64,000 bases of DNA from a virus: the IMG/VR virus record IMGVR_UViG_3300046170_000470; one strand, written 5' to 3'. Below, in pieces: positions 5,758-62,743 of the stretch. A program made the position numbers and the translations under genes. A model generated the notes under the pieces. It worked only from the letters and a program-made list of their open reading frames with translations. It was not told where the DNA came from and did not search any database. Numbering within the stretch: position 1 is the stretch's first letter; the number at the start of each line of letters is the position of its first letter.

Positions 5758-6267
5758 ATGTTTGATATACCCATGTCAAGAAAAGAAGTAGATAAGCAAT
5801 TATCTCAATATCAAAAAATAAATTACAACCAATTTAGGTGGTGGAGGAGTTACCAACCAAAAAACAAACCACTTGATAATCGTCAACCATTACGTGATCG
5901 TATATTTAATGGGGATTTTGATTATTCATGTTATAAAGCTCAACAATATTTAGTTGAATATCAATTAAATGATATATTAGAAGAATGTGATATGGATTAT
6001 GCCAAATACCTAGAAAAAACCCAGGTTATTAGAGCACGAAGAAAACGTCTAATTGAGGACTTTGAAAAAGATGAAGCTGAGAGATTACGTTCTTTAACAG
6101 TTGAATTTACAAAATATTTCAAATGTAATAGAGAACAAGTTGAAAAAGAAATGTTAGAATGTAGTGGCTCCCTGATAGATCTTTATTATATTATAGAAGA
6201 AAAGTATAAAATAGTCCATATACCTGTTCCATTAAAACGTAGAGGACGACCAAAAAAAGTTATATAA
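5758..6267 (+). CDS. Hypothetical protein with C-terminal AT-hook
   Basis: KRRGRPKK. Confidence 0.6.
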   Translation: MFDIPMSRKEVDKQLSQYQKINYNQFRWWRSYQPKNKPLDNRQPLRDRIFNGDFDYSCYKAQQYLVEYQLNDILEECDMDYAKYLEKTQVIRARRKRLIEDFEKDEAERLRSLTVEFTKYFKCNREQVEKEMLECSGSLIDLYYIIEEKYKIVHIPVPLKRRGRPKKVI

Positions 6268-7005
6268 ATGAGTAAAACTTTAATTACAATAACAGGAAAT
6301 TGGCATAAAGATTATTATTCTAATTGGATTGAATGTGAAACTACCTGGGTACCTAAACTAAGGGAAAAAGGTTATGATGTATTGTATTTAATGTCTAATC
6401 CCCATTTAGATAAAGGTTATGAATTACAAGGAAATTTTTTCTTTTCAAAATGTTTAGACAATAAGTATGATATTTACATGAAGTGTGAATATTTTATATC
6501 TAAATACGTACTAAATGAAACAGAATACCAATACAGGTATCATATTGATTCAGATAGCTTTGTCCACCCAGATAGATTTATTAAATTTATAGAAGATTAT
6601 ACAATAACTAATCCTAAAGATTATGTGGGGTGTGCTGTGCCCTATCCTAGTTTCCATTGGGATAACCTAATCCAAAAAGAAATAGATAATGTTAATATAT
6701 GGGCTAGTGGAGGATCAGGTTTTTTATTAAGTCGAAAATCTATGAAATACTTAGTTGAGGATTTTTCTAGAGATGAATTTAAAGATACCATTTTTGAAGA
6801 TAAAATAGTAGGACAGATATTATACAGAAATGGAATCAATTTATTCCATGATTCTAGACTATTATTCACATCTCCATATAAACAAATAATGCATAACCCT
6901 GCAAATGATCCTGTTAACTTTATAGGAAACAAAGATTCATTTTTAGCAGTACAACATTACTGTAATGGTCACATGCAAGAAATAATACATAAATTAGAAT
7001 TATGA
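6268..7005 (+). CDS. GT31/Fringe-like glycosyltransferase (paralog of 58993..59769)
   Basis: IDSDSFV (DxD), ASGGSGFLLSR, EDKIVG. Confidence 0.7.
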   Translation: MSKTLITITGNWHKDYYSNWIECETTWVPKLREKGYDVLYLMSNPHLDKGYELQGNFFFSKCLDNKYDIYMKCEYFISKYVLNETEYQYRYHIDSDSFVHPDRFIKFIEDYTITNPKDYVGCAVPYPSFHWDNLIQKEIDNVNIWASGGSGFLLSRKSMKYLVEDFSRDEFKDTIFEDKIVGQILYRNGINLFHDSRLLFTSPYKQIMHNPANDPVNFIGNKDSFLAVQHYCNGHMQEIIHKLEL

Positions 7006-7793
7006 AAGTATCACATGAAGTACCTCGCTGTTTATTAACAGCATCCCCTGAATTTAATGATTACGATTATGCACTTCCTCACTTGTTTGACCAAGATGAA
7101 GAATATCTACAATATTTTATGGATGCAAAAGCAGATGGTCGTTATATTATAATGGATAATTCACTCCATGAATTGGGAGAAGCATATAATCATGAAAGAT
7201 TACGTTATTGGGTTAGTGTAATAGAACCAGATGAATTTATAGTCCCAGATGTTTGGATGAAATGTGCTGAAACAGCAGCTCAAGCTAAATACTGGAAGCA
7301 ATTTAAATATCCTAAAAAAACTAAACTCACAGCTGTAATTCAAGGTGAAAATAAAAACCAAGCCTATTTGTGTGCTAATTTATTAGCTAATTTAGGATAT
7401 GATAAATTATGTGTATCTTATGGTGCTACTTGGTATAATGATTTCTTTCCACATACTAACGCAGATATGGGAAAAGCATTAGGTAGAGTACGATTTGTAC
7501 AGGGATTATTAAATTTAAAACAATTAAAAGATATTAAGTTTCATTTACTAGGTTGTTCAATACCACAAGAATTTGGTTGGTATGATAATAATCCAAGAAT
7601 AGAATCAATTGATACTTCTAACCCAGTAATGGCTGCTTTAGAAAGTACATGGTATAATGATAATGGTTTAAATACAAAACCAAAAGCAAATATGAATGAT
7701 TATTTTGATATAGATTTTTCAAAAATTGATTATTTAAATGTTGTTCATAATACAACTAAATTTAGAAGAATTAATAATTTAAAAATTAAATAG
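7002..7793 (+). CDS. TGT/DpdA-like 7-deazaguanine transglycosylase
   Basis: MDNSLHELG, VPDV, AVIQG, FHLLG, IDTS match the TGT TIM-barrel pattern; clustered with queC/D/E and folE. Confidence 0.65.
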   Translation: MKVSHEVPRCLLTASPEFNDYDYALPHLFDQDEEYLQYFMDAKADGRYIIMDNSLHELGEAYNHERLRYWVSVIEPDEFIVPDVWMKCAETAAQAKYWKQFKYPKKTKLTAVIQGENKNQAYLCANLLANLGYDKLCVSYGATWYNDFFPHTNADMGKALGRVRFVQGLLNLKQLKDIKFHLLGCSIPQEFGWYDNNPRIESIDTSNPVMAALESTWYNDNGLNTKPKANMNDYFDIDFSKIDYLNVVHNTTKFRRINNLKIK

Positions 7794-7795
7794 TT

Positions 7796-7990
7796 ATGGC
7801 AAAGTTAACAAGAAATGTAAATTATTGTAATTACAGATGGGAAGAATATGTGCTAACAGAAGAAGAATTAGCACAATGGAAAACGGGTGATGAAGATCTC
7901 CAACAAGAAATCATAGATAATGCAGATTGGGACTTAGTAAGAGATAAACCAATTGATGATTATAGTGAACCAGAATTTGTAGAAGAATAA
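7796..7990 (+). CDS. Hypothetical acidic protein
   Basis: ORF in operon. Confidence 0.6.
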   Translation: MAKLTRNVNYCNYRWEEYVLTEEELAQWKTGDEDLQQEIIDNADWDLVRDKPIDDYSEPEFVEE

Positions 7991-7994
7991 TAAT

Positions 7995-8180
7995 ATGGCA
8001 GAATTTATAAGACACGCACTAGGACTTTGTGGAGAACACTATCATCCAAATTTATGGACACTTCTTATAGGAGGAGTTGGATTTTCAACTATTTTTTCGT
8101 ATGTTCGATCATATATAAAATGTAAATTTAATCAAGCGTTAGCCTATACGCGAAATACCTGGCAAAAATTAAATAAGTAA
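7995..8180 (+). CDS. Small membrane protein
   Basis: HALGLCGEHYHP plus one TM. Confidence 0.55.
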   Translation: MAEFIRHALGLCGEHYHPNLWTLLIGGVGFSTIFSYVRSYIKCKFNQALAYTRNTWQKLNK

Positions 8181-8183
8181 ATT

Positions 8184-8972
8184 ATGGCACATTGTGTAGT
8201 AAGTTTAAGTGGTGGAATGGATAGCAGCACCCTATTGTTAAGAGCTATCGAGAAGTATGATACCGTAACTGGTATCTCATTTGATTACGGTCAAAAACAC
8301 AGAGTAGAGCTAGAGAGAGCTCAATCATTAATTGATTACCTTGCAAGTAAAGGTCACAAAGTAAATTATCGTCAAATTAAACTTGATGGTCTAGTAGATC
8401 TATTAGACTCAGCTTTAGTTACAGGTGGAGATGACGTACCAGAAGGTCATTACGAACAAGATAATATGAAAGAAACAGTTGTTCCTAATAGAAACAAAAT
8501 GTTTGCTTCAATTACTCAAGCAGTTGCATTATCTGTAGCAAATAGAACAGAAGATGTTTGTGATATCGCTTTAGGTATTCATGCCGGTGACCATGCAGTT
8601 TACCCTGATTGTAGACAAGAATTTAGAGATGCAGATGATGCAGCTTTTAGAATTGGAAACTGGGATGCAGATAGAGTAGGTTACTTTACACCTTATTTAG
8701 ATACTGATAAATTTGGTATCCTACAAGATGGAGAAAAATTATGTGAAATTTTAGGTATTGATTTTGATGAAGTTTATAAAAGAACTAATACATCGTACAA
8801 ACCCTATCCTAGTGGAAATTCCGATTATAAGTCTGCTTCTAGTGTTGAGAGGATTGAGGCTTTTATTGCTTTGGGGAGAAAAGATCCTGTACAGTATGAG
8901 GATGAAACTGGAGTGGTTGATTACGAAGTAGCAAAAACTCATGTTGAGAAAGTTCTTGCTGAATATGTATAG
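8184..8972 (+). CDS. queC: QueC-like 7-cyano-7-deazaguanine synthase lacking the Zn-binding Cys
   Basis: SGGMDS, FDYGQKH, VPNRN, YPDCR. Confidence 0.92.
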   Translation: MAHCVVSLSGGMDSSTLLLRAIEKYDTVTGISFDYGQKHRVELERAQSLIDYLASKGHKVNYRQIKLDGLVDLLDSALVTGGDDVPEGHYEQDNMKETVVPNRNKMFASITQAVALSVANRTEDVCDIALGIHAGDHAVYPDCRQEFRDADDAAFRIGNWDADRVGYFTPYLDTDKFGILQDGEKLCEILGIDFDEVYKRTNTSYKPYPSGNSDYKSASSVERIEAFIALGRKDPVQYEDETGVVDYEVAKTHVEKVLAEYV

Positions 8973-8994
8973 ATTACTATTAATATTTTAAAGA

Positions 8995-9135
8995 ATGAAC
9001 ACAGAACAATCAAATGGTAACACCCAGCTAAACGCTGAAAGAGCTAAAGTAAACCAAAGAGTAAGTAGGTATGCTATGCTGGGTAGATCCAAAAAAGTTT
9101 ATTGGGATGGTGCAAGAAGAAACCGTACAATTTAA
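8995..9135 (+). CDS. 46-aa basic peptide (not in ORF track)
   Basis: ATG..TAA fills the gap: MNTEQSNGNTQLNAERAKVNQR... Confidence 0.5.
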   Translation: MNTEQSNGNTQLNAERAKVNQRVSRYAMLGRSKKVYWDGARRNRTI

Positions 9136-9160
9136 CTTAGTAGAATAAAAAACAAAAATT

Positions 9161-9808
9161 ATGATTGGTATATTAAATGATCGAGTAGTAAAACATATTA
9201 ACAACATCTCTGAGATATTAAATAAATCTGGTGAAAGAATAGAAGGAAACTTAATATGTGATGTCACAGCTGAAAACCATGTAGATGAACAGAATAGGAG
9301 TAAAATAGAGAACTTAATTACAGTAGCCAAAGGCAAACAGAGAATATGCGAGATAGGAGTTAATGCAGCACATAGCTTGTTACTTATGGTTGATAGTAAT
9401 CCTACTGCACATTATACTGTGTTTGATTTAAATGGTCATTCTTACACTCATTCATGTATAGAGTATGTTAAAAATGCTTACCCATCTACAGACATTAAAG
9501 TAATTTATGGAGATACTAATATAACATTACACAATTACCTCCAAATGAGTACAGAGGCTCAACGTTTTGATATGATACACGTGGATGGTGGTCATGAACT
9601 CCCAACTGTTGTAAATGACTTTATCTACTCAAGATTCTTACTAAAACCAAAAGGAATAGTTGTATTTGATGATTACAATTTTCATGACATCAAGGTAACT
9701 CTTGATTATTACATAGAGAGAAATGTTATACAGAATATAGATTCCCCAGACATAATAGACACAGGTCTTCATTATATTTATAGTTTCGAGACCGATCAAA
9801 ACAATTAA
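9161..9808 (+). CDS. Class I SAM-dependent methyltransferase (Methyltransf_24-like)
   Basis: EIGVNAAHS, FDMIHVDGGH, GIVVFDDY. Confidence 0.85.
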   Translation: MIGILNDRVVKHINNISEILNKSGERIEGNLICDVTAENHVDEQNRSKIENLITVAKGKQRICEIGVNAAHSLLLMVDSNPTAHYTVFDLNGHSYTHSCIEYVKNAYPSTDIKVIYGDTNITLHNYLQMSTEAQRFDMIHVDGGHELPTVVNDFIYSRFLLKPKGIVVFDDYNFHDIKVTLDYYIERNVIQNIDSPDIIDTGLHYIYSFETDQNN

Positions 9809-9813
9809 AATTT

Positions 9814-10023
9814 ATGAATAAAAATCAAATGAATTTAAGTGCTAAAGGTGGGATTCAAATTAATGGTCAAAAAATTCCTGATCCTAAACTACACCAAAAA
9901 ATTAGTTTTATTAAATCCGGAATAAGAATAGCTGGTTATTTTCTTTTGCCTTTTAGCTTGGAAATTGCAGCAGGAGTTCTTATATTGAGCGAAATAATTG
10001 GTATAATTGAAGAATTAGTATAA
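9814..10023 (+). CDS. Small membrane protein
   Basis: HQKISFIKSGIRIAG...SEIIGIIEELV. Confidence 0.6.
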   Translation: MNKNQMNLSAKGGIQINGQKIPDPKLHQKISFIKSGIRIAGYFLLPFSLEIAAGVLILSEIIGIIEELV

Positions 10024-10271
10024 TGAAGAAAATTTTATATTTTAGTGCAGCATGGTGTGGTCCCTGTAAAATGTTAGGTCCTATTATGGATTCAGTATCT
10101 GAAGAAGTAGTTTGGGAAAAAATTAATGTAGATAATAATCAAGAATTATCTATAAAATATGGTGTTAGAAATATTCCTACATTAGTTCTAATTGATGGGG
10201 ATGGAAATGAATTAAATAGATCAACTGGGGTAATACAAAAACAACAAATAATAGACTTTTATAATGGGTAA
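10023..10271 (+). CDS. trxA: Thioredoxin
   Basis: WCGPC, IPT. Confidence 0.93.
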   Translation: MKKILYFSAAWCGPCKMLGPIMDSVSEEVVWEKINVDNNQELSIKYGVRNIPTLVLIDGDGNELNRSTGVIQKQQIIDFYNG

Positions 10272-10728
10272 ATTTCAATCAAGCAAGGTATTTGACGGGT
10301 TTAGCACAGTGTTCCGTCAATGGAAAGCAGAAACAACACACTGTAGATTTGTTCATGGTTATGGTATTTCTTTTAAAGTATATTTTGAAGGAGGATTAGA
10401 TGAAAGGAATTGGGTATGGGATTTTGGTGGAATGAAAAGAGCTAAAACTCAAATCGATGGTATGTCTCCTAAAGCCTGGATGGATTATATGTTTGATCAC
10501 ACATTAATAGTAGCTGAGGATGATCCTTTTAAAAATGCTTTTATAGAAATGGGAGAAGCAGGTGCTGCTCAAGTAAGAATAATACCAGCTACAGGAGCAG
10601 AAAAATTTGCAGAATATATTTTTAACAAAATAAATGAATTTGTTAAAACTGAAACTGATAATAGAGTAAGAGTAATTAAAGTAAAATTTATGGAGCATGG
10701 GAAAAATGCTGCATATTACAGCGAATAG
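10264..10728 (+). CDS. queD: 6-carboxytetrahydropterin synthase (QueD/PTPS family)
   Basis: HCRFVHGY, WVWDFG, FDHT, GAEKFAE. Confidence 0.88.
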   Translation: MGKFQSSKVFDGFSTVFRQWKAETTHCRFVHGYGISFKVYFEGGLDERNWVWDFGGMKRAKTQIDGMSPKAWMDYMFDHTLIVAEDDPFKNAFIEMGEAGAAQVRIIPATGAEKFAEYIFNKINEFVKTETDNRVRVIKVKFMEHGKNAAYYSE

Positions 10729-10737
10729 GTTATAATA

Positions 10738-11556
10738 GTGAATGAAAAACCACTTAAAAAAATTAACAATATGCATAAGCAATTAAAACGTATTGAGGAT
10801 TACGAAAAAAACCTCCCAATTGTTGAAGTTTACACAGCAGTACAGAGCGAGGGATCCAGAGCGGGTTACCCCACAGTTGTGATCAGAACTACTGGTTGTA
10901 CACATCGATGTTACTTTGGCGAGGGTGGATGGTGCGACAGTTGGTATACTTCAATCCACCCAGAAAAAGGTCAATTTAATTTTAATGATATTATACAAAA
11001 GTATAAAGATAATCCTCATATTAAAGAGATGATGTTAACAGGAGGTTCTCCTACAATGCATCCTGCTTTAGTAAATGAATTAACACACTTTGCACATGAA
11101 AATGATATATTCATTACTATCGAAACTGAAGGATCTCATTTCCTTCCCACTGATTATCCTATTAATCTTTTGTCAATTTCTCCTAAGTTTTCTAATAGCG
11201 TCCCCGTTGTTGGTGTTGCTACTCCTCAAGGAGGAATTACAGACGAAAGGATGGTTAAAAAACATAATTCGAAAAGGTTGAATTATGAAGCAATGAAACA
11301 ATCAATTGAATATCATTCCGATTACCATATTAAACCAGTATGGGATGGTAAAGATGAAGATGCTTTAGCTGAGATTATGGAATGTATTGAAAAATTAGAT
11401 GTACCTCAAGATAAGGTATGGTTTATGCCCGCAGGTGATTCAAGAGAAGGACTATTTAAATCATATCCTGTATTATTTGATTGGGTTAGAGATAATGGTT
11501 ATAGAATGACTTGGAGACCACATATCATTGCTTTTGAAGACCAACGCGAAGTATAG
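10738..11556 (+). CDS. queE: 7-carboxy-7-deazaguanine synthase, radical SAM
   Basis: VQSEG..G.P.V.IRTTGC, Cx3Cx7C-DS, LTGGSP, IETEG, SISPK. Confidence 0.9.
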   Translation: MNEKPLKKINNMHKQLKRIEDYEKNLPIVEVYTAVQSEGSRAGYPTVVIRTTGCTHRCYFGEGGWCDSWYTSIHPEKGQFNFNDIIQKYKDNPHIKEMMLTGGSPTMHPALVNELTHFAHENDIFITIETEGSHFLPTDYPINLLSISPKFSNSVPVVGVATPQGGITDERMVKKHNSKRLNYEAMKQSIEYHSDYHIKPVWDGKDEDALAEIMECIEKLDVPQDKVWFMPAGDSREGLFKSYPVLFDWVRDNGYRMTWRPHIIAFEDQREV

Positions 11557-11696
11557 TGGATAAACAAGAAGCTCTTCGTATATTAGAGGAAATAGAAGAA
11601 AATGTAAATACATGCTGTGCTATTACTATGGAGCCAGATGATGTATTAGTATTAATAGACAAATTAAAAAGTTATATAAATGGAGAACAAACGTAG
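11556..11696 (+). CDS. 46-aa acidic peptide (not in ORF track)
   Basis: GTG overlaps the queE stop; reads into the folE start. Confidence 0.5.
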   Translation: MDKQEALRILEEIEENVNTCCAITMEPDDVLVLIDKLKSYINGEQT

Positions 11697-12375
11697 AAAA
11701 GTTCACGAAGAATTAGAAGTAGTAAAAATAGGTTATGCAAATGGTGTTGCACCAGGATTTCCCTTTACAGATAAAGAAAAATTGAAAATGATTGATGATG
11801 CAGAAGAAGCTTATGGTAAGTTTTTAGATGCATTAAAATGTGATTGGAGAGAAGATCCTAACTCAATGGAAACACCTCGTCGTGTAGCTAAAGCTTACGT
11901 GAATGATTTATGGGCTGGTAGATATACAGCTATGTCTCCTATTACCTCATTCCCATCAGATGGTTATGATGGTATTATTATAGAACGTAATATACCATTA
12001 ACTTCAATGTGTTCTCACCACCACCAAACAATTGGAGGTGTAGTTCATATTGGTTATATAGCAGGAGAAGGTGGTCAAGTAATTGGTTTATCCAAACTAA
12101 ATAGAATAGTAGAATTATTTGGCCGTAGAGGAGCAATTCAAGAACAATTAACATCAGCCATTCATAATGCCGTAGATAAGATTACAGATGGAAATAAAGG
12201 TGTAATTGTTACTATAGTTGGAACACATAATTGTGTAAGTTGTAGAGGTGTTAAACATCAAGGTGCAGCAATGGTTACCACAAAAGCATCAGGTGTATTT
12301 AGAAAAAATAAAAATTTAGCCCGTAAAGAATTTTTTGATAGTTTAAAAATTAATAATGGAGGACACAATATATAG
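11680..12375 (+). CDS. folE: GTP cyclohydrolase I
   Basis: ETPRRVAK, SMCSHH, GLSKLNR, QEQLT, HNCVSCRG. Confidence 0.92.
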   Translation: MENKRRKVHEELEVVKIGYANGVAPGFPFTDKEKLKMIDDAEEAYGKFLDALKCDWREDPNSMETPRRVAKAYVNDLWAGRYTAMSPITSFPSDGYDGIIIERNIPLTSMCSHHHQTIGGVVHIGYIAGEGGQVIGLSKLNRIVELFGRRGAIQEQLTSAIHNAVDKITDGNKGVIVTIVGTHNCVSCRGVKHQGAAMVTTKASGVFRKNKNLARKEFFDSLKINNGGHNI

Positions 12376-12377
12376 CT

Positions 12378-12872
12378 ATGTTAAAATTAGATAATAAAAA
12401 AATAGGAGTTAGTTGGTGGGATATGACAGATCTTATTAAGGATCTAACAAAAAAAATCCCATTTGAAGTACCATTAGCTGATTCAATTTATGGAATACCA
12501 AGAGGGGGTTTAATCCCAGCAGTAATGTTATCACATTCAACGGGTTTACCTTTAGTAGATACAATAGGTAAAAATACTTTAGTAGTAGATGATATGACAG
12601 ATAGTGGAGTTACTATGGATAAAATGCCTGGACAATGGACAGCAGTTTTATTTCATAAACCACATACTTCAGTCTTTACTCCAAACGTATATTCTAAGTT
12701 ACATGAAGGAGATGAATGGTTAGTATTTCCTTGGGAAGATTTTAAAGCCCCAGCCAAACAAGATTACTTAAAGGAAGACCAAGATGAATTTGGACATCTA
12801 GCAGATGCTAATTATATTGGGGGTTTAACAATGCCAAAAACAAACACAAATAAAGTAGGGAAAAATGGGTAA
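12378..12872 (+). CDS. Type I phosphoribosyltransferase (xanthine/guanine PRT-like)
   Basis: YGIPRGGLIPA, VVDDMTDSGVT PRPP loop, WLVFPWE. Confidence 0.88.
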   Translation: MLKLDNKKIGVSWWDMTDLIKDLTKKIPFEVPLADSIYGIPRGGLIPAVMLSHSTGLPLVDTIGKNTLVVDDMTDSGVTMDKMPGQWTAVLFHKPHTSVFTPNVYSKLHEGDEWLVFPWEDFKAPAKQDYLKEDQDEFGHLADANYIGGLTMPKTNTNKVGKNG

Positions 12873-13407
12873 ACAATTAGAATTATTTAGCAAAGCCGAC
12901 GTGCCCTTTGTTAATGAAGTAGAAATATTTAATCGCACGTTTAATAAACCGAATAATTATGAGCCAACGATACCAGAAAAAAAGGAATGGCAATTCGTAT
13001 ACGACTTTGTACTTGAAGAATTGGAAGAATATAGACAGGCTTGCGAAAACGGAGACATCGTGGAAATTTTGGATGCTATTTGTGATCTTGCTTACGTTGC
13101 CACTGGCAACGCCACTATGCTACATGGTCTTAAAGATAAGGTATGGCCGGCCTATCAAGAAGTACAAGCAAGTAATATGTCAAAATCTTGCGCGACTGAA
13201 GAAGAAGCCGTGGCGACTGTCGCCCAAAGAAGTAAAGAACTCTCTGTCGCATGCCATTATGAGAAAGTCGAAGATAGATTCGTAGTATATAGAACAAGTG
13301 ACAAAAAGGTCATGAAATCAATTAATTATTTTAGACCCGACCTAAGACAATTCTTTACAGGAGATGAATTGCAAAAATCAAAACCTCAACAACATTTAGG
13401 CATCTAG
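12865..13407 (+). CDS. MazG/PRA-PH-like all-alpha NTP pyrophosphohydrolase
   Basis: EELEEY, EILDAICDLAYV, EVQASNMSK, KVMKS. Confidence 0.85.
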   Translation: MGKQLELFSKADVPFVNEVEIFNRTFNKPNNYEPTIPEKKEWQFVYDFVLEELEEYRQACENGDIVEILDAICDLAYVATGNATMLHGLKDKVWPAYQEVQASNMSKSCATEEEAVATVAQRSKELSVACHYEKVEDRFVVYRTSDKKVMKSINYFRPDLRQFFTGDELQKSKPQQHLGI

Positions 13408-13452
13408 AGGGAACGGAAATGGGAACGGCACATATGTATAATAAAATATAAT

Positions 13453-13926
13453 ATGAGAACGTGCCCTAAATGTAAAGAAACTAAATCCCTTACAACAGAA
13501 AATTTCTATCGAAATAAGTCTGAAGTAGGGGGGTTTCAATACACTTGTAAAGTTTGCCATAAATCCCATTATAAAAGAAAAAATAGCTATAAAGGGTATA
13601 TTAAAGGAGCCAATTTAGCTTATAAAAATAAACGTTATAAAAATGACCCTGAATATAGGTTAATACATCAACTTAGAGTTAGAGTTAACCAATATCTAAA
13701 AAAGGGTAATCAAGATAAAACAATTGATTTTCTTGGTTGTTCTATCAAAGAATGGGTCGTATATTTAGAGCAACAATGGGATGGTAATATGACATGGGAA
13801 AACCATGGTACCTATTGGGAAATAGATCATATTCATCCATTAAGTAAAGGCGGTAGTTTTCATTATAAGAATACTCAGCCAATGGAAGTTGTAGAGAATA
13901 GGAAAAAAAGTAATAAGGTTATATAA
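13453..13926 (+). CDS. Free-standing HNH endonuclease with N-terminal Zn finger
   Basis: CPKC...CKVC; WEIDHIHPLSKGG..HYKNTQPM...NRKKSN. Confidence 0.85.
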   Translation: MRTCPKCKETKSLTTENFYRNKSEVGGFQYTCKVCHKSHYKRKNSYKGYIKGANLAYKNKRYKNDPEYRLIHQLRVRVNQYLKKGNQDKTIDFLGCSIKEWVVYLEQQWDGNMTWENHGTYWEIDHIHPLSKGGSFHYKNTQPMEVVENRKKSNKVI

Positions 13927-14111
13927 TGAGTAAGAAAGATAAAAAAGTATACGAAATTGATGGTAAAAAATTAACTATCCAAGAGCTATTTTGGAATTAT
14001 GAAAAATATCAAGATAAAGTACGAAGTGGTGATGTAATACATTTAGATAAAAAAACACCTCCTGAAGATAAAGAATGGGAAAAATATTTAAAAGCACATA
14101 AAGGGATATAA
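13926..14111 (+). CDS. Hypothetical protein
   Basis: Coupled ORF. Confidence 0.55.
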   Translation: MSKKDKKVYEIDGKKLTIQELFWNYEKYQDKVRSGDVIHLDKKTPPEDKEWEKYLKAHKGI

Positions 14112-15820
14112 TGTATAAAAAATGCTATTCAACAAGATTAGGACACAATAAATACAAAATTCATTTATGGGACGAAGGTGGCTATAATGAAATTGAATGG
14201 CATAATCCTGCTTATCAAGAATGCAATGAAGAAGAGGCAACCCACACAGGTTTAAGTGGAGAGCCTCTTCGCAAAATTTATAAGTGGGATAAAAATACAC
14301 CTAACTTGCATTTTCATGATATCACCCCTTACCAGAAATTTTTAATTGAAAAGTATGGTATTAATGATGAACCCTCTACAGGCCATAGAGAATTATTTTT
14401 TGATATTGAGTGTGAAATAGGAGGTGCTTTAACTGAAGATTATATTGAAAGAGCTCCTATGCCTATTACTACAATAGCTTATTGGGACAAAACCCCAGAT
14501 AGTTGGGTTATTTTAGTTCGTGATGATAAAAATGAATTAAAAAGAACTAAAGCTAAGAATAAGGAAATAGTGCCTTGTAGAACAGAAGCAGAATTATTAG
14601 CTAAATTTTTGGAACGTTTTAGAGAAATTGACCCTGATATTTTAATTGGTTATAATAGTGATTATTTTGATATACCTTATTTATATTATAGAATGTGTAA
14701 TGTATTAGGTAAAGAGTGGGCTGATCAATTATCCCCCATTGGTAAAGTAAATGCTAAAAAGAATAATGAATATTTCTTTAAACAAAATCAATTTGTAGAT
14801 ATTATCGGGGTTGAATCTCTAGACTATATCCGCTTACATAAAAAATATAGTTGGAAAGATGAACCAAGTTGGAAATTAGATGCTATTGGGGAAAAATATG
14901 TTGGTATGGGTAAAATTGAATATGATGGTAACTTAGACCAATTATTCAAAACTGACTTACAAAAATATATTCAGTATAACTTTGTTGATGTTGAAATCTT
15001 AAAACTATTAGATGAAAAACTCCAGTATATTGCTTTAACAAAAAACTTAGCCCATAAAGGAAAACATAACTATAGTGAGGTTTATGCAAATAGTAAAACC
15101 CAAGATGGTGCAATCTCAGCTTATTTATTATCCCAAAACATTATACCACCAGGTAAAGATCCTAATCCTAGAAGTAAAAAAGGATATGCTGGTGGTTACC
15201 TTTTTTGCCCCAAAGCTGGATTGTACAAATATATGTTTGATGAGGATTTAACATCACTGTATCCATCTATAATTATGTCTTTAAACATAGGACGTGAAAC
15301 CTATAAGGGGCGTATTATAGATGCTGATGATCGTAATAATAGATTGGGTCTTAACGATTTGAAAGAACGTGACCAAGATGAAGAATTATTAGTTGAAAAT
15401 TCTAAAGGACAACAAACTAGAGTTAATGTTGGAAGATTAATTTCTATGGTAGAACAAAATAATCTAACATTATCCGCCAATGGTTCTATGTTTACTACGG
15501 ATAGACAATCAACACTATCTACAGTACTAGACAAATGGTTTTCTGAACGTAAGTTGTATAAAGGTAAAATGAAAGAAGCATATAAAGCAGGTGACAAAGA
15601 AAAAGGTGCTTATTACCATTTAATGCAATATACAATGAAAATTTTGCTTAACAGTTTATATGGAGCTACAGCATTACCCTCATTTAGGTATGGTTTAAGT
15701 TTATCCATTTTAAGTGAAGCAATAACATTATCAGGTCACCGTATTATTCAAGAATCAGCTTTAGTAGCTAATAAACATATGAATAAAGTTTTACGTAACG
15801 AATTAAAATTAGAATTATAA
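14111..15820 (+). CDS. DNA polymerase family B, N-terminal subunit (3'-5' exonuclease plus motifs A and B)
   Basis: FDIE, GYNSDYFDIPY, YNFVD, DLTSLYPSII, KILLNSLYG. Confidence 0.95.
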   Translation: MYKKCYSTRLGHNKYKIHLWDEGGYNEIEWHNPAYQECNEEEATHTGLSGEPLRKIYKWDKNTPNLHFHDITPYQKFLIEKYGINDEPSTGHRELFFDIECEIGGALTEDYIERAPMPITTIAYWDKTPDSWVILVRDDKNELKRTKAKNKEIVPCRTEAELLAKFLERFREIDPDILIGYNSDYFDIPYLYYRMCNVLGKEWADQLSPIGKVNAKKNNEYFFKQNQFVDIIGVESLDYIRLHKKYSWKDEPSWKLDAIGEKYVGMGKIEYDGNLDQLFKTDLQKYIQYNFVDVEILKLLDEKLQYIALTKNLAHKGKHNYSEVYANSKTQDGAISAYLLSQNIIPPGKDPNPRSKKGYAGGYLFCPKAGLYKYMFDEDLTSLYPSIIMSLNIGRETYKGRIIDADDRNNRLGLNDLKERDQDEELLVENSKGQQTRVNVGRLISMVEQNNLTLSANGSMFTTDRQSTLSTVLDKWFSERKLYKGKMKEAYKAGDKEKGAYYHLMQYTMKILLNSLYGATALPSFRYGLSLSILSEAITLSGHRIIQESALVANKHMNKVLRNELKLEL

Positions 15821-16086
15821 TGGCATTAAGCAAACAGTCAATAAGAAAAGGAATGTATATTACTGTAGATGGTAATATTATTACTAAGGATGAACTAATA
15901 TCTATTAGTGAGGGATGGACTGAAGTCCAAGAAAACTTTTTTAGAAAAATGTTAAAACAGGGAGGACATTTTAAATTAAAGGGAGTAAAATATATAGTAG
16001 AACTTCAAGAATCTGATAATAAAAGATCAGATGGAAGTAAAGATAGTGGTATAATTCAAATCCCTGGAGAAGATAGTAGATTTTAA
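15820..16086 (+). CDS. Hypothetical protein between the polymerase halves
   Basis: Coupled ORF. Confidence 0.65.
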   Translation: MALSKQSIRKGMYITVDGNIITKDELISISEGWTEVQENFFRKMLKQGGHFKLKGVKYIVELQESDNKRSDGSKDSGIIQIPGEDSRF

Positions 16087-16089
16087 ATT

Positions 16090-16476
16090 ATGAAAGTAGA
16101 AATATCAAACGGAGAATTACTAGATAAAATTACAATTCTAGAATTAAAATTAGATAAAATTAAGGATAAAGATAAATTGGTTAATATTCAAAAAGAATTT
16201 GATACCCTAAATCCCTTATGTAATGAATTATTTAAAATATATGGTGGAGAATTACAAGTCCATTATTTAGCATTGGCTAAAATTAATGGTCAGCTTTGGG
16301 ACATAGAAGATTGGATTAGAGATTGTGAACGTGAAAAGAATTTTGATAAAGAATTTGTAGAATTAGCCCGTTCTGTGTATATTACAAATGATAAAAGATG
16401 TGAAGTTAAAAAATTAATTAATATTTTAACATCATCAGGGCTAGTAGAAGAAAAATCATATAAAGACTACAATTGA
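16090..16476 (+). CDS. DUF6165-like protein between the polymerase halves
   Basis: SNGELLDKITILELK, LWDIED, FVELARSVYITNDKR, EEKSY. Confidence 0.75.
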   Translation: MKVEISNGELLDKITILELKLDKIKDKDKLVNIQKEFDTLNPLCNELFKIYGGELQVHYLALAKINGQLWDIEDWIRDCEREKNFDKEFVELARSVYITNDKRCEVKKLINILTSSGLVEEKSYKDYN

Positions 16477-17429
16477 AACATTTAGAAGAAACACCTTGGT
16501 TTATTTGCGATAAAGAAGATGAGAATTATTGTGCATATGTAGACACTGATTCCAATTATTTTAACGCAGAACCCATATTAAAACATTTATACCCTGATTT
16601 CGAATCATTTTCAGATGAAGAAAAAGATGAAAAATTAGAAGGTGTAGCTTTAGCATATCAAGATATTATTACTGAACACTATGATAATCTAGCTAAAGAT
16701 TGTTTTAATGTTAAACAATTTGATTGGTTTGATAAACCACATTGGCTTGAAATGAAAACAGAGTGTGTTATTCGTTCTGCTTATTTTAGAGCAACAAGAC
16801 GTTATGCACAATGGATTACTAAACAAGAAGGTATTGCTAAAGAAACTTTAGATATTAAGGGTTTAGAATTTATGAAAGCAAATTTTCCACCTATTTTAGG
16901 GGAATTTTTTAATGATATTCTTCAACAAGTATTAAAAGGTGAAGAAAAAGCTAGTATAATAGATCAAATTAAAGTATTTAAAAAGCAAATATTAGGTGGT
17001 GAAATTCCATTAGCTAAATTAGGTAATCCAACAGCAGTTAAAAAATTAGAAAAATATAGTGGTAAAAGTGCTCGTGCTGGTGAAATGTTTACTGAAATAT
17101 TAAAAGGAGCACCCGCACCAGTTCGTGCTGCTATTCGTTATAATGATTTACTTAGATTGTGGCAATTGGATAAAAAACATAATTTAATTACTATGGCTGA
17201 TAAAGTTAAATGGATTTATTTAAAAGATAATCCCTATAAAATAGATGCCCTAGCTTACCAACAACACGATATCCCAGAAAAAATATCAGATTTTTTAGAG
17301 GCGTATGCTGATAGGAAAAAAGTATTCGATTCAATATTACTGAATAAACTAGAAGGATTCTTTAGTGACCTACAGTGGTCATTAGATTTGAATCCTTATA
17401 CAAATGCACTAAGTTCGTTTGAAATTTAA
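16473..17429 (+). CDS. DNA polymerase family B, C-terminal subunit (motif C, thumb)
   Basis: YVDTDS, RRYA, IKGLE; TTG start overlaps the upstream TGA. Confidence 0.92.
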   Translation: MKHLEETPWFICDKEDENYCAYVDTDSNYFNAEPILKHLYPDFESFSDEEKDEKLEGVALAYQDIITEHYDNLAKDCFNVKQFDWFDKPHWLEMKTECVIRSAYFRATRRYAQWITKQEGIAKETLDIKGLEFMKANFPPILGEFFNDILQQVLKGEEKASIIDQIKVFKKQILGGEIPLAKLGNPTAVKKLEKYSGKSARAGEMFTEILKGAPAPVRAAIRYNDLLRLWQLDKKHNLITMADKVKWIYLKDNPYKIDALAYQQHDIPEKISDFLEAYADRKKVFDSILLNKLEGFFSDLQWSLDLNPYTNALSSFEI

Positions 17430-23465: not shown

Positions 23466-23692
23466 CAAAAGAATTATATACCATGTTAAAAACATCTGCT
23501 GAAGCAGATAAAGCTAAAGCATTATTGTCACTTGAATTATTAGGAAATAAAGCAGTAGGTATTGGAGATCATTCAACCGAAGATTTTTATAAAAATGCTG
23601 AAGAAGCACTTATAAATCTAGTTGATGCCGATGATAGACTTGCAGTATTAAATATATATTTTTCAGACAGTAAAGACCAAATTAATGGGTGA
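23462..23692 (+). CDS. Hypothetical protein
   Basis: AVGIGDHS. Confidence 0.6.
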   Translation: MTKELYTMLKTSAEADKAKALLSLELLGNKAVGIGDHSTEDFYKNAEEALINLVDADDRLAVLNIYFSDSKDQING

Positions 23693-61969: not shown

Positions 61970-62743
61970 ATGAATTTAACAGCAGAACAAATCCAAGCGA
62001 ATTGGGAAGAATTTAATTCTAATATTAGAACCCATATTGAGGGAGATCGTAAATATAAATTACTTGATTTTTATAAAAAATATGAAGAGCGTATTATCTT
62101 AATGCCTGCTGCTCATAAAAAAGAGTACCATAATGCATTCCCAGGTGGGTATGTAGAACACGTAAACAGAGTAGTTCGTTGTGCCTTAAAACAATATGAA
62201 CTATGGAAAGAAGAAGGGGCAGATATGTCTACCTTTACCTTGGAGGAACTAGTTTTCTCTGCTATTAATCATGACCTTGGTAAGATGGGGGATGAAGACA
62301 ATGAATCTTACATCCCCCAGACTGACCAATGGAGAAAGGATAAATTGGGAGAGGATTATATGTTTAATAAGAAGGTGCCTTTCGCCTCTGTTCCTGATCG
62401 TGGTTTATTTCTACTTCAGTCTCATGGGATTCAATATACATTTAATGAAATGTTAGCTATCCAGACACATGATGGTTTGTATGATGAAGCAAATAAAAAA
62501 TATCTATTTGCCTTTATGCCAGAACAAAAACCTCGTACCTGCCTCCCATTTATTTTACATCAGGCAGATTTAATGTCTGCTCGTATAGAATTTGAAAGGG
62601 AATGGTTACCTAAACTAAAAGGAGAAGATAGCGTGGAGCCCCAAAAGAAAAATTATACATTAAACAAGAAAACTAGTTCAAAATCAAAGGCACTTAATAC
62701 AATATCAAGTCCAGGATTAAAGAATATGTTAGACAGTTTATGA
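61970..62743 (+). CDS. HD-domain phosphohydrolase (YhaM-like)
   Basis: PAA...HNAFPGGYVEH, NHDLGK, HDG, LHQAD. Confidence 0.85.
   Translation: MNLTAEQIQANWEEFNSNIRTHIEGDRKYKLLDFYKKYEERIILMPAAHKKEYHNAFPGGYVEHVNRVVRCALKQYELWKEEGADMSTFTLEELVFSAINHDLGKMGDEDNESYIPQTDQWRKDKLGEDYMFNKKVPFASVPDRGLFLLQSHGIQYTFNEMLAIQTHDGLYDEANKKYLFAFMPEQKPRTCLPFILHQADLMSARIEFEREWLPKLKGEDSVEPQKKNYTLNKKTSSKSKALNTISSPGLKNMLDSL

What the first reader, a model, noticed from the sequence alone, without database searches (positions are those of the whole stretch)
7002..17429. 7-deazaguanine locus running into a PRTase, a nucleotide pyrophosphatase and a split polymerase: candidate pre-replicative guanine-replacement system
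Seen: TGT/DpdA-like, queC, queD, queE and folE are followed without a break by a guanine/xanthine-type phosphoribosyltransferase, a MazG-like pyrophosphatase and PolB. A DUF1599 gene (23685) and an HD hydrolase (61970) lie further on. No queF or archaeosine synthase is visible in the window. Known: FolE-QueD-QueE-QueC makes preQ0, and phage DpdA proteins usually exchange it into DNA after replication. Some phages replace G completely, which requires a modified dNTP. Inference: the PRTase could attach the deazaguanine base to PRPP, the MazG-like enzyme could deplete dGTP, and the phage PolB could incorporate the analogue, in parallel to the Z-genome logic. The PRTase could equally be ordinary purine salvage.
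Basis: partly seen in the sequence, partly recalled or inferred. Interest (0 to 1): 0.78.

Follow-up and report, generated by a model that had tools for sequence, protein, structure and literature searches.

The report
Phage deazaguanine DNA module with guanine-salvage helper
An uncultured marine phage carries the known DpdA3-type gene set that replaces guanine in phage DNA with a 7-deazaguanine, and the neighbouring salvage enzyme most likely recycles expelled guanine, not feeding a modified nucleotide to the polymerase.

Summary
The gene content is real. 7002-17429 encodes a DpdA3-type transglycosylase, QueC, QueD, QueE, FolE, a Gpt-like phosphoribosyltransferase (PRT), a MazG-like pyrophosphohydrolase and a two-gene family-B polymerase.

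The phage is a distant relative of Flavobacterium phage immuto_2-6A, whose G is fully replaced by fdPreQ1 (Cui 2023). No QueF, formyltransferase or dNMP kinase was found in the window, in 129 related viral loci, or in two 97-100% complete relatives. The predicted base is therefore preQ0.

All 63 related loci that span the FolE-MazG interval carry a 6-oxopurine PRT beside FolE: 54 Gpt-type, 9 a near-canonical Hpt-type. The Gpt-type is also fused to FolE or QueE in other deazaguanine phages. It keeps the Asp that contacts purine N7. It evolves fastest in the module. Campylobacter phage CP220 replaces all G without any PRT.

This favours guanine recycling into the GTP that feeds FolE. It does not favour a deazaguanine-nucleotide route. 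MazG-like homologues are common in phages without QueE.

A pre-replicative route is not excluded, because DpdA3 has never been assayed successfully. Earlier notes of this scan report the same theme in at least 13 other genomes.

The parts
5758..6267 (+). Conserved unknown gene immediately upstream of dpdA3 (169 aa, C-terminal RGRPKK tail)
   Evidence: tblastn match in 115 of 129 related loci, always next to DpdA3. No Pfam or PHROG hit.
6268..7005 (+). Fringe-like glycosyltransferase; lineage-specific insertion, not part of the module
   Evidence: Pfam Fringe E 2.5e-6. Found in 1 of 129 related loci.
7002..7793 (+). DpdA3-type guanine transglycosylase (minimal TGT barrel, 263 aa)
   Evidence: 35-36% identity over the full length to immuto DpdA3 and to the CP220 homologue. 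PHROG 19058. AF2 pLDDT 97. Foldseek best hits are TGT 2pot and DpdA 7ui4. Invariant D52, D83, D204 in 67 family representatives.
7796..8180 (+). Two small conserved ORFs (64 and 61 aa), function unknown
   Evidence: Homologues in immuto and in many related loci. No family hit.
8184..8972 (+). QueC (CDG to preQ0), variant without the four zinc cysteines
   Evidence: Pfam QueC E 2.4e-37. 70% identical to immuto QueC. The Cys-to-Ser C-terminus is shared with immuto and the whole clade.
9161..9808 (+). Class-I SAM methyltransferase; genome-specific insertion, role unknown
   Evidence: Pfam Methyltransf_24 E 7.4e-12. Absent from all 129 related loci. No homologue in 50,697 phage records.
10023..10271 (+). 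Thioredoxin-like protein conserved inside the que cluster
   Evidence: Pfam Thioredoxin E 1.5e-16. Present in 89 related loci between queC and queD. Immuto has a homologue.
10264..10728 (+). QueD (CPH4 synthase), catalytic Cys kept, so not the DpdL decarboxylase type
   Evidence: Pfam PTPS E 9.6e-15, PHROG QueD-like 9.6e-40. Motif reads C-x3-H-G-Y, against DpdL L-x3-H-R-H (PMC10516641).
10738..11556 (+). QueE (radical-SAM CDG synthase)
   Evidence: PHROG QueE-like 6.2e-53. 83% identical to immuto QueE and 73.5% to phiST QueE.
11680..12375 (+). FolE (GTP cyclohydrolase I)
   Evidence: Pfam E 3.3e-42. NCBIfam FolE 1.3e-40.
12378..12872 (+). Gpt/XGPRT-like 6-oxopurine phosphoribosyltransferase lacking the beta-hairpin (flexible loop), with a disordered C-terminal tail
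   Evidence: PDB sequence hits 1vdm, S. solfataricus Gpt-2 and E. coli XGPRT. NCBIfam xanthine PRT 47.5 bits, below the cut-off. AF2 pLDDT 81; Foldseek best hits 1vdm, HGXPRT and XGPRT. Invariant R42 G43 G44 D71 D72 D75 T79 K94 W114, which align to Gpt R37 G38 G39 D88 D89 D92 T96 K115 W134.
12865..13407 (+). MazG-like all-alpha NTP pyrophosphohydrolase, substrate unknown
   Evidence: Pfam PRA-PH E 2.8e-10. PHROG 671. EELEE...ExxD motif invariant in 29 sequences. 69% identical to the immuto NTP-PPase. Present in 63 of 63 spanning loci.
13453..13926 (+). HNH / endonuclease VII-like gene, probably a homing endonuclease insertion
   Evidence: PHROG endonuclease VII 4.2e-21. Found in only 4 of 129 loci.
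14111..15820 (+). Family-B DNA polymerase, N-terminal gene (exonuclease, motifs A and B)
   Evidence: Pfam DNA_pol_B_exo1 and DNA_pol_B. Motif A at residue 379 and motif B at residue 510.
15820..16476 (+). Two genes between the polymerase halves (88 aa unknown; DUF6165)
   Evidence: Pfam DUF6165 E 9.7e-16. Relatives have 0, 1 or 2 genes here. Where there are none, the two polymerase genes abut but stay separate.
16473..17429 (+). Family-B DNA polymerase, C-terminal gene (motif C and thumb)
   Evidence: Weak Pfam divDNApol/DNA_pol_B hits. YVDTDS at residue 22. Both halves are found in 45 related loci.

Best explanation
This is a DpdA3-type 7-deazaguanine DNA-modification module in the replication region of an uncultured marine myophage, probably of Bacteroidota and distantly related to Flavobacterium phage immuto_2-6A.

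FolE, QueD, QueE and QueC convert GTP to preQ0. DpdA3, a stripped-down TGT-fold barrel, exchanges guanine in phage DNA for that base. Neither the window nor any related record searched holds a QueF, formyltransferase (DpdN) or DpdL-type decarboxylase. The predicted product is therefore dPreQ0, probably at very high or complete occupancy, as in the three DpdA3 phages that have been measured.

The Gpt-like PRT beside FolE is a working 6-oxopurine salvage enzyme. It converts free guanine plus PRPP to GMP. That guanine comes from DpdA3 (one per exchange) and from breakdown of host nucleic acids. The GMP refills the GTP pool that FolE consumes and removes the exchange by-product.

The MazG-like enzyme is a nucleotide-pool pyrophosphohydrolase serving the adjacent replicase. 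It may stand in for a dUTPase, since none is encoded in complete relatives.

The polymerase is an ancestrally two-gene PolB and is unrelated to the modification.

Shown: gene identities, folds, conserved catalytic residues, synteny and co-occurrence. Inferred: the base made, its occupancy, the PRT substrate and the MazG substrate.
For: Module identity:
- Gene identities rest.
- Proteins are 35-83% identical to immuto. Immuto DNA is fully fdPreQ1 by LC-MS (PMC10516641).

No later-step genes:
- QueF, DpdN, TMK and PolA are absent from the window and from the 129 loci.
- QueF is absent from relatives that are 85%, 97% and 100% complete.
- The zinc-less QueC variant is shared with immuto, which must make preQ0.

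PRT as guanine salvage:
- It has the Gpt family sequence and fold.
- All Gpt catalytic residues are invariant, including the N7-contacting Asp and the O6-contacting Lys.
- 63 of 63 loci spanning the interval have a PRT next to FolE: 54 Gpt-type and 9 Hpt-type. The Hpt-type scores 142-148 bits on TIGR01203, against a cut-off of 150.
- This is non-orthologous displacement between two families. Guanine phosphoribosylation as their common activity is established knowledge of Gpt and Hpt.
- The PRT is the fastest-evolving module protein: 52.9% mean identity, against 74-87% for the others.
- It is fused to FolE or QueE elsewhere. It sits in Queuovirinae-type clusters that have a classical DpdA.

No encoded nucleotide route:
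- Complete relatives encode no guanylate or thymidylate kinase.

MazG:
- Homologues occur in 184 phage records. 72 are Flavobacterium-phage and 40 Microbacterium-phage records. QueE matches only 4 Flavobacterium-phage records, and Microbacterium is not among the ten commonest names.
- Complete relatives encode no trimeric dUTPase.
Against: - No enzyme here has been assayed. DpdA3 has never been shown to act on DNA; Cui 2023 report failed attempts in E. coli.
- DpdA3 has no Cys cluster of the kind that forms the zinc site in TGT/DpdA. It has only about 59 residues after the putative nucleophile, where DpdA has a large insertion making up about 30% of the protein. DNA binding is therefore unproven.
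- A PRT clustered with FolE, QueD and QueE that uses CDG plus PRPP exists in tubercidin biosynthesis (TubE, PMC6112128). I could not compare sequences with it.
- The Gpt-type enzyme lacks the flexible-loop hairpin, which could alter its specificity.
- The fusion to QueE fits a product-side role as well as a supply-side role.
- CP220 lacks any PRT, so the helper is not obligatory.
- QueF could lie in the unseen part of this particular genome.
Confidence: 0.6

Rival explanations
1. The PRT attaches the deazaguanine base (preQ0 or CDG) to PRPP, as TubE/ToyH do. Host kinases and ribonucleotide reductase convert the product to a modified dNTP. MazG destroys dGTP, and the phage PolB incorporates the analogue during replication. 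DpdA3 would only patch residual G.
For: TubE is a proven CDG:PRPP phosphoribosyltransferase encoded next to FolE/QueD/QueE homologues (PMC6112128). The PRT is tightly linked or fused to FolE and QueE. Its flexible-loop hairpin is deleted. Measured DpdA3 phages are 100% replaced. PRT, MazG and the polymerase are adjacent. Hutinet 2019 left room for a modified-dGTP route.
Against: The PRT slot is filled by either a Gpt-type or a near-canonical Hpt-type enzyme. The N7-contacting Asp is invariant, although 7-deazapurines have no N7. The PRT occurs in classical-DpdA, Queuovirinae-type phages; measured members of that group show partial, motif-specific modification (PMC10484667), which a dNTP route cannot give. 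CP220 reaches 100% without a PRT. No phage kinase is encoded. The polymerase family differs between relatives that share the module. The PRT evolves fastest and is replaceable.
Confidence: 0.1
2. A pre-replicative route that runs through DpdA3. MazG converts dGTP to dGMP. The minimal DpdA3 barrel swaps guanine for preQ0 on the free deoxynucleotide. Host or phage kinases rebuild the triphosphate. The PRT recycles the released guanine. This would parallel T4 gp56/gp42/gp1 and the MazZ/PurZ logic of Z-genome phages.
For: DpdA3 has no Cys cluster for a zinc site and only about 59 residues where DpdA has its large insertion. DpdA3 could not be shown to modify DNA in E. coli. Replacement is complete in the measured DpdA3 phages. 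MazG-like genes are invariably in the module here, and lie beside DpdA3 in immuto and phiST. In CP220, DpdA3 is flanked by an HD/P-loop protein and a thymidylate-kinase-like gene; immuto has a thymidylate kinase two genes downstream. ADG nucleoside was reported in CP220-infected cells (cited in PMC10516641).
Against: This clade has no dNMP or guanylate kinase, even in 97-100% complete genomes. MazG-like homologues are generic in phages. All characterised TGT/DpdA enzymes act on polynucleotides (PMC10164549). The published view is post-replicative insertion (PMC10516641). There is no direct evidence for any step.
Confidence: 0.15
3. The PRT and MazG are general nucleotide-metabolism auxiliaries of the replication module. 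They lie near the que genes only because early genes are packed together, and have no functional tie to deazaguanine.
For: MazG-like homologues occur in 184 phage records, while QueE matches only 97 records of mostly different groups. In phiST the PRT lies about 20 genes from the deazaguanine cluster, next to RNase H and RNR.
Against: For the PRT: 63 of 63 loci place it next to FolE across 52-97% DpdA3 divergence and across a family swap. Covalent fusions to FolE and QueE exist. In each of the six cultured-phage groups I checked, a phage with a homologue also carries que genes.
Confidence: 0.1

Closest known systems
[quoted passage not shown]
   Same: Homologous FolE, QueD, QueE, zinc-less QueC, Gpt-like PRT next to FolE, MazG-like NTP-PPase and DpdA3. 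GroES/GroEL lie downstream. Protein identities are 35-83%.
   Different: No QueF, DpdN formyltransferase or thymidylate kinase is seen here or in relatives, so the base should stop at preQ0. DpdA3 is only 35% identical, while the biosynthetic enzymes are 60-83% identical. The polymerase is a two-gene PolB here and PolA in immuto. The window has an extra SAM methyltransferase.
dDG system of Cellulophaga phage phiST and dADG system of Campylobacter phage CP220 (other DpdA3 phages)
   Same: DpdA3 plus the CDG pathway. phiST QueE is 73.5% identical. phiST has a MazG/dUTPase-like gene by DpdA3 and a PRT elsewhere in its genome.
   Different: phiST has DpdL and no QueC, and its PRT keeps the hairpin. 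CP220 has no PRT at all and has kinase-like genes beside DpdA3.
Cellular 6-oxopurine phosphoribosyltransferases: Gpt/XGPRT (E. coli, PDB 1nul/1a95; P. horikoshii 1vdm) and Hpt
   Same: Same fold, PRPP loop, PPi loop, N7-contacting Asp, O6-contacting Lys and stacking Trp. A sister subclade uses a near-canonical Hpt in the same slot.
   Different: About 25 residues, the beta-hairpin that corresponds to the flexible loop, are deleted. The NCBIfam score is far below the equivalog cut-off. A variable disordered C-terminal tail is present. The genomic coupling or fusion to FolE/QueE is specific to phages.
TubE/ToyH deazapurine phosphoribosyltransferases of tubercidin and toyocamycin clusters (PMC6112128)
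   Same: A purine-type PRT encoded with FolE, QueD and QueE homologues.
   Different: Those clusters have no transglycosylase and yield free nucleosides. I could not make a sequence comparison, so any relationship is untested.
Z-genome (PurZ/MazZ/DatZ/DpoZ) and T4 hmC (gp56/gp42/gp1) pre-replicative systems
   Same: A MazG-type pyrophosphohydrolase lies next to the replicase, in a phage lineage whose relatives have fully substituted DNA.
   Different: No dedicated nucleotide-level synthase or kinase has been identified, and no evidence shows that the MazG-like enzyme targets dGTP. A base-exchange enzyme is present instead.

Membership tests
DpdA3 subfamily of DNA guanine transglycosylases (Cui 2023) | Sequence homology to named DpdA3 members (immuto, CP220) | tested here: met
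   tblastn gives 35.2% identity over 98% of the query to the immuto 'DNA guanine transglycosylase' (E 8e-44), and 35.7% over 99% to the CP220 homologue.
DpdA3 subfamily of DNA guanine transglycosylases (Cui 2023) | TGT-like TIM-barrel fold | tested here: met
   AF2 pLDDT 97 and pTM 0.93. Foldseek best hits are TGT 2pot and DpdA 7ui4, probability 1.00.
DpdA3 subfamily of DNA guanine transglycosylases (Cui 2023) | Three catalytic or base-binding aspartates of TGT/DpdA | tested here: inconclusive
   D52, D83 and D204 are invariant in 67 representatives. Their spacing (31 and 121 residues) roughly resembles that of DpdA D95/D130/D256 (35 and 126). No residue-level superposition was made.
DpdA3 subfamily of DNA guanine transglycosylases (Cui 2023) | Complete replacement of G in virion DNA | not testable with these tools
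   Requires LC-MS of virion DNA. No isolate is available.
Canonical TGT/DpdA | Structural Zn site (Cys/His cluster) and large insertion after the nucleophile | tested here: not met
   The 263-aa sequence has no Cys cluster, and only about 59 residues follow D204. In DpdA, Ins8 makes up about 30% of the protein.
Gpt/XGPRT 6-oxopurine PRT | PRPP-binding motif with Asp at the N7 position, PPi loop RGG, Lys for O6, stacking Trp | tested here: met
   These residues are invariant in 30 sequences and align with E. coli Gpt R37 G38 G39 D88 D89 D92 T96 K115 W134.
Gpt/XGPRT 6-oxopurine PRT | Curated family score (NCBIfam NF006613 equivalog) | tested here: not met
   47.5 bits against a cut-off of 138.
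Gpt/XGPRT 6-oxopurine PRT | Beta-hairpin (flexible loop) between the second strand and the PRPP motif | tested here: not met
   About 25 residues are missing relative to 1vdm and E. coli Gpt. The model shows only a short loop at residues 56-66.
Gpt/XGPRT 6-oxopurine PRT | Guanine/xanthine + PRPP activity | not testable with these tools
   Requires an enzyme assay.
TubE/ToyH deazapurine PRT | Closer sequence relationship to TubE/ToyH than to salvage PRTs; use of CDG or preQ0 | not tested
   No TubE or ToyH sequence could be obtained with the tools. Only the paper was read.
MazG / all-alpha NTP pyrophosphohydrolase | Family HMM above cut-off and the EExxE...ExxD metal motif | tested here: met
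   PF01503 scores 40.9 bits against a cut-off of 21.3. The motif is invariant in 29 sequences.
MazG / all-alpha NTP pyrophosphohydrolase | dGTP-specific hydrolysis (needed for the Z-genome-like reading) | not testable with these tools
   The PDB sequence and profile searches gave no informative hit.
preQ0 pathway (FolE, QueD, QueE, QueC) | All four enzymes present with catalytic motifs | tested here: met
   Family hits. QueD keeps the catalytic Cys. QueC keeps SGGMDS but lacks the zinc cysteines, as does immuto QueC.
Family-B DNA polymerase | Exonuclease domain and motifs A, B and C | tested here: met
   Pfam hits. The motifs are split over the two genes.

The most novel reading that the evidence does not exclude
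In DpdA3 phages, guanine is replaced before replication, at the level of free nucleotides. The always-present MazG-like enzyme makes dGMP from dGTP. The minimal, zinc-less DpdA3 barrel swaps the base on the nucleotide, or the PRT builds the deazaguanine nucleotide. The phage polymerase then incorporates the analogue, and the PRT closes a guanine-recycling loop. This would be a third natural pre-replicative whole-base replacement system, after hmC/hmU-type and Z-type genomes. It would overturn the published post-replicative view of DpdA3.
Probability: 0.2. Interest if true: 0.8.

Novelty: new member of a known kind. Interest (0 to 1): 0.42.

Why it matters
DpdA3 phages are the only known viruses that replace every guanine with a 7-deazaguanine. 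How they reach 100% is unresolved, because DpdA3 has never been reconstituted.

This locus belongs to a large uncultured marine clade. At least 129 related viral contigs were found, and the DpdA3 family has 1369 representative clusters. The clade appears to stop at preQ0, a DpdA3 output not yet measured.

The analysis shows that a 6-oxopurine PRT next to FolE is a constant, swappable (Gpt-type or Hpt-type) and sometimes fused part of phage deazaguanine modules. None of the deazaguanine papers I could search mentions it. It points to a guanine-recycling loop. Such a loop would halve the purine cost of complete replacement and remove the exchange by-product.

That idea gives concrete assays, and a candidate for the 'other unknown enzymes' that Cui et al. 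suspected when heterologous reconstitution failed.

Tried and rejected
- The window's own genome is not held, so the genome search 'own' failed.
The context of the PRT-QueE fusion P0126 and of the PRT-FolE fusion P0123 could not be read.
- A viral-contig scan for P0126 found nothing.
- PDB sequence and profile searches for the MazG-like protein gave only chance hits. The protein-atlas look-up only repeated 'NTP pyrophosphohydrolase'.
- I first concluded that some relatives lack a PRT, because tblastn with the Gpt-type query found none. This was wrong. A profile search found a divergent frame in the same slot, which proved to be an Hpt-type PRT.
- I first read zero-gap polymerase halves as an unsplit PolB. 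ORF listing showed two abutting genes, so the split is ancestral.
- The annotated PaMx25 gp38 frame does not align. The PRT match there lies in another frame and runs into folE.
- The SAM methyltransferase as a DpdM-like modifier was considered and set aside. It is absent from all 129 relatives and from all phage records.
- The weak QueF hits are the related T-fold of FolE.
- Literature searches for DpdA or preQ0 together with phosphoribosyltransferase in phages found nothing relevant.

Full report
**1. Observation**

The window is a ~30% GC phage segment with almost all genes on the + strand. In 7002-17429, family searches confirm QueC, QueD, QueE, FolE, a weak Pribosyltran hit, a PRA-PH/MazG-type hydrolase and a family-B polymerase in two pieces.

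The first gene, 7002-7793, has no Pfam hit. It is 35-36% identical over its whole length to the annotated DpdA3 of Flavobacterium phage immuto_2-6A and to the CP220 protein that Cui et al. named DpdA3.

- a class-I SAM methyltransferase (9161-9808);
- a thioredoxin-like gene (10023-10271);
- an HNH/endonuclease VII gene (13453-13926).

DUF1599 at 23685 is confirmed. The 'HD hydrolase' at 61970 has no Pfam hit but shows an NHDLGK stretch. The window ORFs show no match to immuto QueF.

**2. Which phage, and what is conserved**

Only queC reaches megablast similarity, 82% to immuto. At protein level the window shares the following with immuto:

| Protein | Identity to immuto |
|---|---|
| QueE | 83% |
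| QueC | 70% |
| QueD | 70% |
| MazG-like | 69% |
| FolE | 60% |
| GroEL | 59% |
| PRT | 48% |
| DpdA3 | 35% |

Immuto places PRT, FolE, the NTP-PPase and DpdA3 together, followed by a formyltransferase (DpdN), thymidylate kinase, QueF and PolA. Its DNA is fully fdPreQ1 (PMC10516641).

Two scans of IMG/VR gave 129 related loci whose DpdA3 is 52-97% identical to the window's. Wherever contigs reach far enough, the gene order is the same:

unknown 169-aa gene, DpdA3, small ORFs, QueC, thioredoxin, QueD, QueE, FolE, PRT, MazG, PolB-N, (0-2 genes), PolB-C.

The methyltransferase is in none of the 129 loci, the glycosyltransferase in one, and the HNH gene in four. None of the 129 has QueF, DpdN, TMK or PolA near the module.

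Whole-record searches cover relatives that are 40-100% complete, including a 163.6-kb record rated 100% and a 158-kb record rated 97%. They find no QueF, no thymidylate kinase, no guanylate kinase and no trimeric dUTPase.

QueD keeps its catalytic Cys, so it is not the DpdL decarboxylase. QueC has lost all four zinc cysteines. So has immuto QueC, which must feed QueF with preQ0. The pathway therefore most likely ends at preQ0.

**3. DpdA3**

A search of 1.84 billion representatives found 1369 relatives: 554 at E<=1e-10 and 139 at E<=1e-30. A 67-sequence alignment has invariant D52, D83 and D204.

The AF2 model (pLDDT 97) is a TIM barrel. Its best Foldseek matches are tRNA-guanine transglycosylases and the DNA preQ0 insertase DpdA, 7ui4. 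The spacing of the three aspartates roughly resembles that of DpdA D95/D130/D256.

The protein has no cysteine cluster for a zinc site. It has only about 59 residues where DpdA has its large Ins8 insertion. Some family members are fused to a formyltransferase.

Cui et al. could not show DpdA3 activity in E. coli. They infer post-replicative insertion only from the presence of DpdA in all deazaguanine phages.

**4. The phosphoribosyltransferase**

*Family and active site.* By sequence and by predicted fold it belongs with Gpt/XGPRT-type 6-oxopurine PRTs: 1vdm, S. solfataricus HGXPRT and E. coli XGPRT. Alignment with E. coli Gpt, fetched, shows about 25 residues missing, namely the hairpin between the second strand and the PRPP motif. 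Every catalytic residue is kept and is invariant in 30 clade members: R-G-G, D-D, the Asp that contacts N7, the Thr of the phosphate loop, the O6 Lys and the stacking Trp.

*Distribution in cultured phages.* Homologues occur in 39 cultured-phage records. In each of the six groups I opened, the phage also carries que genes:
- immuto;
- phiST, where the PRT is far from the cluster and its hairpin is kept;
- PaMx25;
- Stenotrophomonas phage ply2008005c and Vibrio phage VpKK5, where the PRT is the N-terminal domain of a ~300-aa FolE;
- Brevundimonas phage MaInes, with the order dNMP kinase, FolE, PRT.

These rest.

*Fusions.* The metagenomic protein database adds PRT-FolE fusions and one PRT-QueE fusion.

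*CP220.* CP220 has no PRT detectable by PF00156 or by tblastn.

*Literature.* None of the deazaguanine papers I could search mentions a phosphoribosyltransferase.

**5. The decisive comparative result**

Of the 129 loci, 63 cover both the upstream que genes and MazG. Fifty-four have the Gpt-type PRT. The other nine have a different enzyme in the same slot next to FolE. It is an Hpt-type PRT that scores 142-148 bits on the NCBIfam HGPRTase equivalog, whose cut-off is 150. None lacks a PRT.

Two non-orthologous 6-oxopurine PRT families therefore fill one conserved position. Both families are known as guanine/hypoxanthine salvage enzymes (established family knowledge). The Gpt-type protein is also the fastest-evolving member of the module: 52.9% mean identity, against 74-87% for the rest, in 46 loci that hold all eight genes.

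A near-canonical salvage enzyme can replace it, the N7-contacting Asp is invariant, and it occurs in phages with classical DpdA. All three argue for guanine as substrate.

The simplest mechanism is a recycling loop. Each base exchange releases one guanine and costs one GTP for preQ0 synthesis. Guanine plus PRPP gives GMP, which host kinases return to GTP for FolE. This halves the purine cost of full replacement and removes the exchange by-product. This step is inference.

**6. MazG-like enzyme and polymerase**

The MazG-like protein keeps the EExxE...ExxD motif and is present in 63 of 63 loci next to the polymerase. Homologues at 26-43% identity occur in 184 phage records. 72 are Flavobacterium-phage and 40 Microbacterium-phage records.

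QueE matches only 97 records. Only 4 of these are Flavobacterium-phage records, and Microbacterium is not among the ten commonest names. The family is therefore generic. Its substrate cannot be read from sequence. Because complete relatives have no dUTPase, a pool-sanitising role is plausible.

The polymerase is encoded by two genes throughout the clade. Motifs A and B are in the first gene and motif C in the second. Relatives have 0, 1 or 2 genes between the halves. Where there are none, the two genes abut but stay separate. Immuto uses PolA with the same module, so the module is not tied to one polymerase family.

**7. Rivals**

I could not obtain TubE or ToyH sequences for comparison. The comparative evidence in sections 4 and 5 weighs against it.

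*A nucleotide-level route through DpdA3.* In this route MazG makes dGMP, DpdA3 swaps the base and the PRT recycles guanine. It is not excluded. In its favour:
- DpdA3 is minimal and zinc-less, and has not been reconstituted on DNA.
- Replacement is complete in the measured phages.
- CP220 and immuto have kinase-like genes beside DpdA3.

Against it, this clade encodes no such kinase. I give the two pre-replicative routes together about 0.2-0.25.

**8. Verdict**

The locus is a new member of the known DpdA3 class. It is predicted to yield dPreQ0. It carries a conserved but little-noticed guanine-salvage helper.

The scan's earlier notes show the same theme on at least 13 other genomes, with similar conclusions. 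One of them states that all three fully replaced phages carry the PRT. My searches did not find one in CP220.

Noticed in passing
window 8184-8972: QueC has all four zinc-ligand cysteines replaced (the C-terminus reads TSY...SG..SD..SASS). Immuto QueC and every clade member examined share this, whereas CP220 and PaMx25 QueC keep the cysteines.
   Followed up: yes
window 9161-9808: A class-I SAM methyltransferase (Methyltransf_24 / O-methyltransferase-like) is inserted between queC and queD. It is absent from all 129 related loci and has no homologue in 50,697 phage records. It could further modify the base or be an unrelated moron.
   Followed up: partly
L132, L134, L137, L138, L156-L160 (for example L165:1270-1749): A sister subclade has an Hpt-type hypoxanthine-guanine PRT (TIGR01203, 142-148 bits) in the slot next to FolE, in place of the Gpt-type enzyme.
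   Followed up: yes
P0126; P0123-P0125; L093:4926-5819; L095:4926-5828: The hairpin-less Gpt-like PRT occurs as an N-terminal fusion to QueE (367 aa) and to FolE (~300 aa) in metagenomic proteins and in Stenotrophomonas and Vibrio phages. In the phage records the fusion is annotated simply as GTP cyclohydrolase.
   Followed up: partly
window 12780-12872 (PRT residues ~135-164): The PRT has a disordered C-terminal tail (pLDDT<50). A short motif recurs in it (h-x-GGL[TS]-x-[DP]-K) in about half of the clade members, with variable linkers. It may be a docking peptide.
   Followed up: no
window 10023-10271: A thioredoxin-like gene is conserved between queC and queD in 89 related loci. Immuto has a homologue elsewhere in its genome. 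It may be a reductant for the pathway.
   Followed up: no
window 5758-6267: An unknown 169-aa protein ending in RRGRPKK lies immediately upstream of dpdA3 in 115 of 129 loci. It matches no family and could be a DpdA3 partner or a regulator.
   Followed up: partly
window 14111-17429; L149:15856-18467; L066:12281-14883: The family-B polymerase is a two-gene enzyme across the whole clade, broken between motifs B and C. The number of genes lodged in the break varies from 0 to 2 (88-aa ORF, DUF6165).
   Followed up: yes
P0170, P0229: Some DpdA3 family members are fused at the C-terminus to a formyltransferase domain, a DpdA3-DpdN fusion.
   Followed up: partly
window 13453-13926 and 6268-7005: An HNH/endonuclease VII gene lies between MazG and PolB, and a Fringe-like glycosyltransferase lies before dpdA3. 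Both are sporadic insertions, found in 4 and 1 of the 129 loci.
   Followed up: yes
   Followed up: partly
L096:7868-10361 (CP220): In CP220, DpdA3 is flanked by an HD-domain/P-loop protein and a thymidylate-kinase-like gene. Immuto also has a thymidylate kinase two genes downstream of DpdA3.
   Followed up: partly
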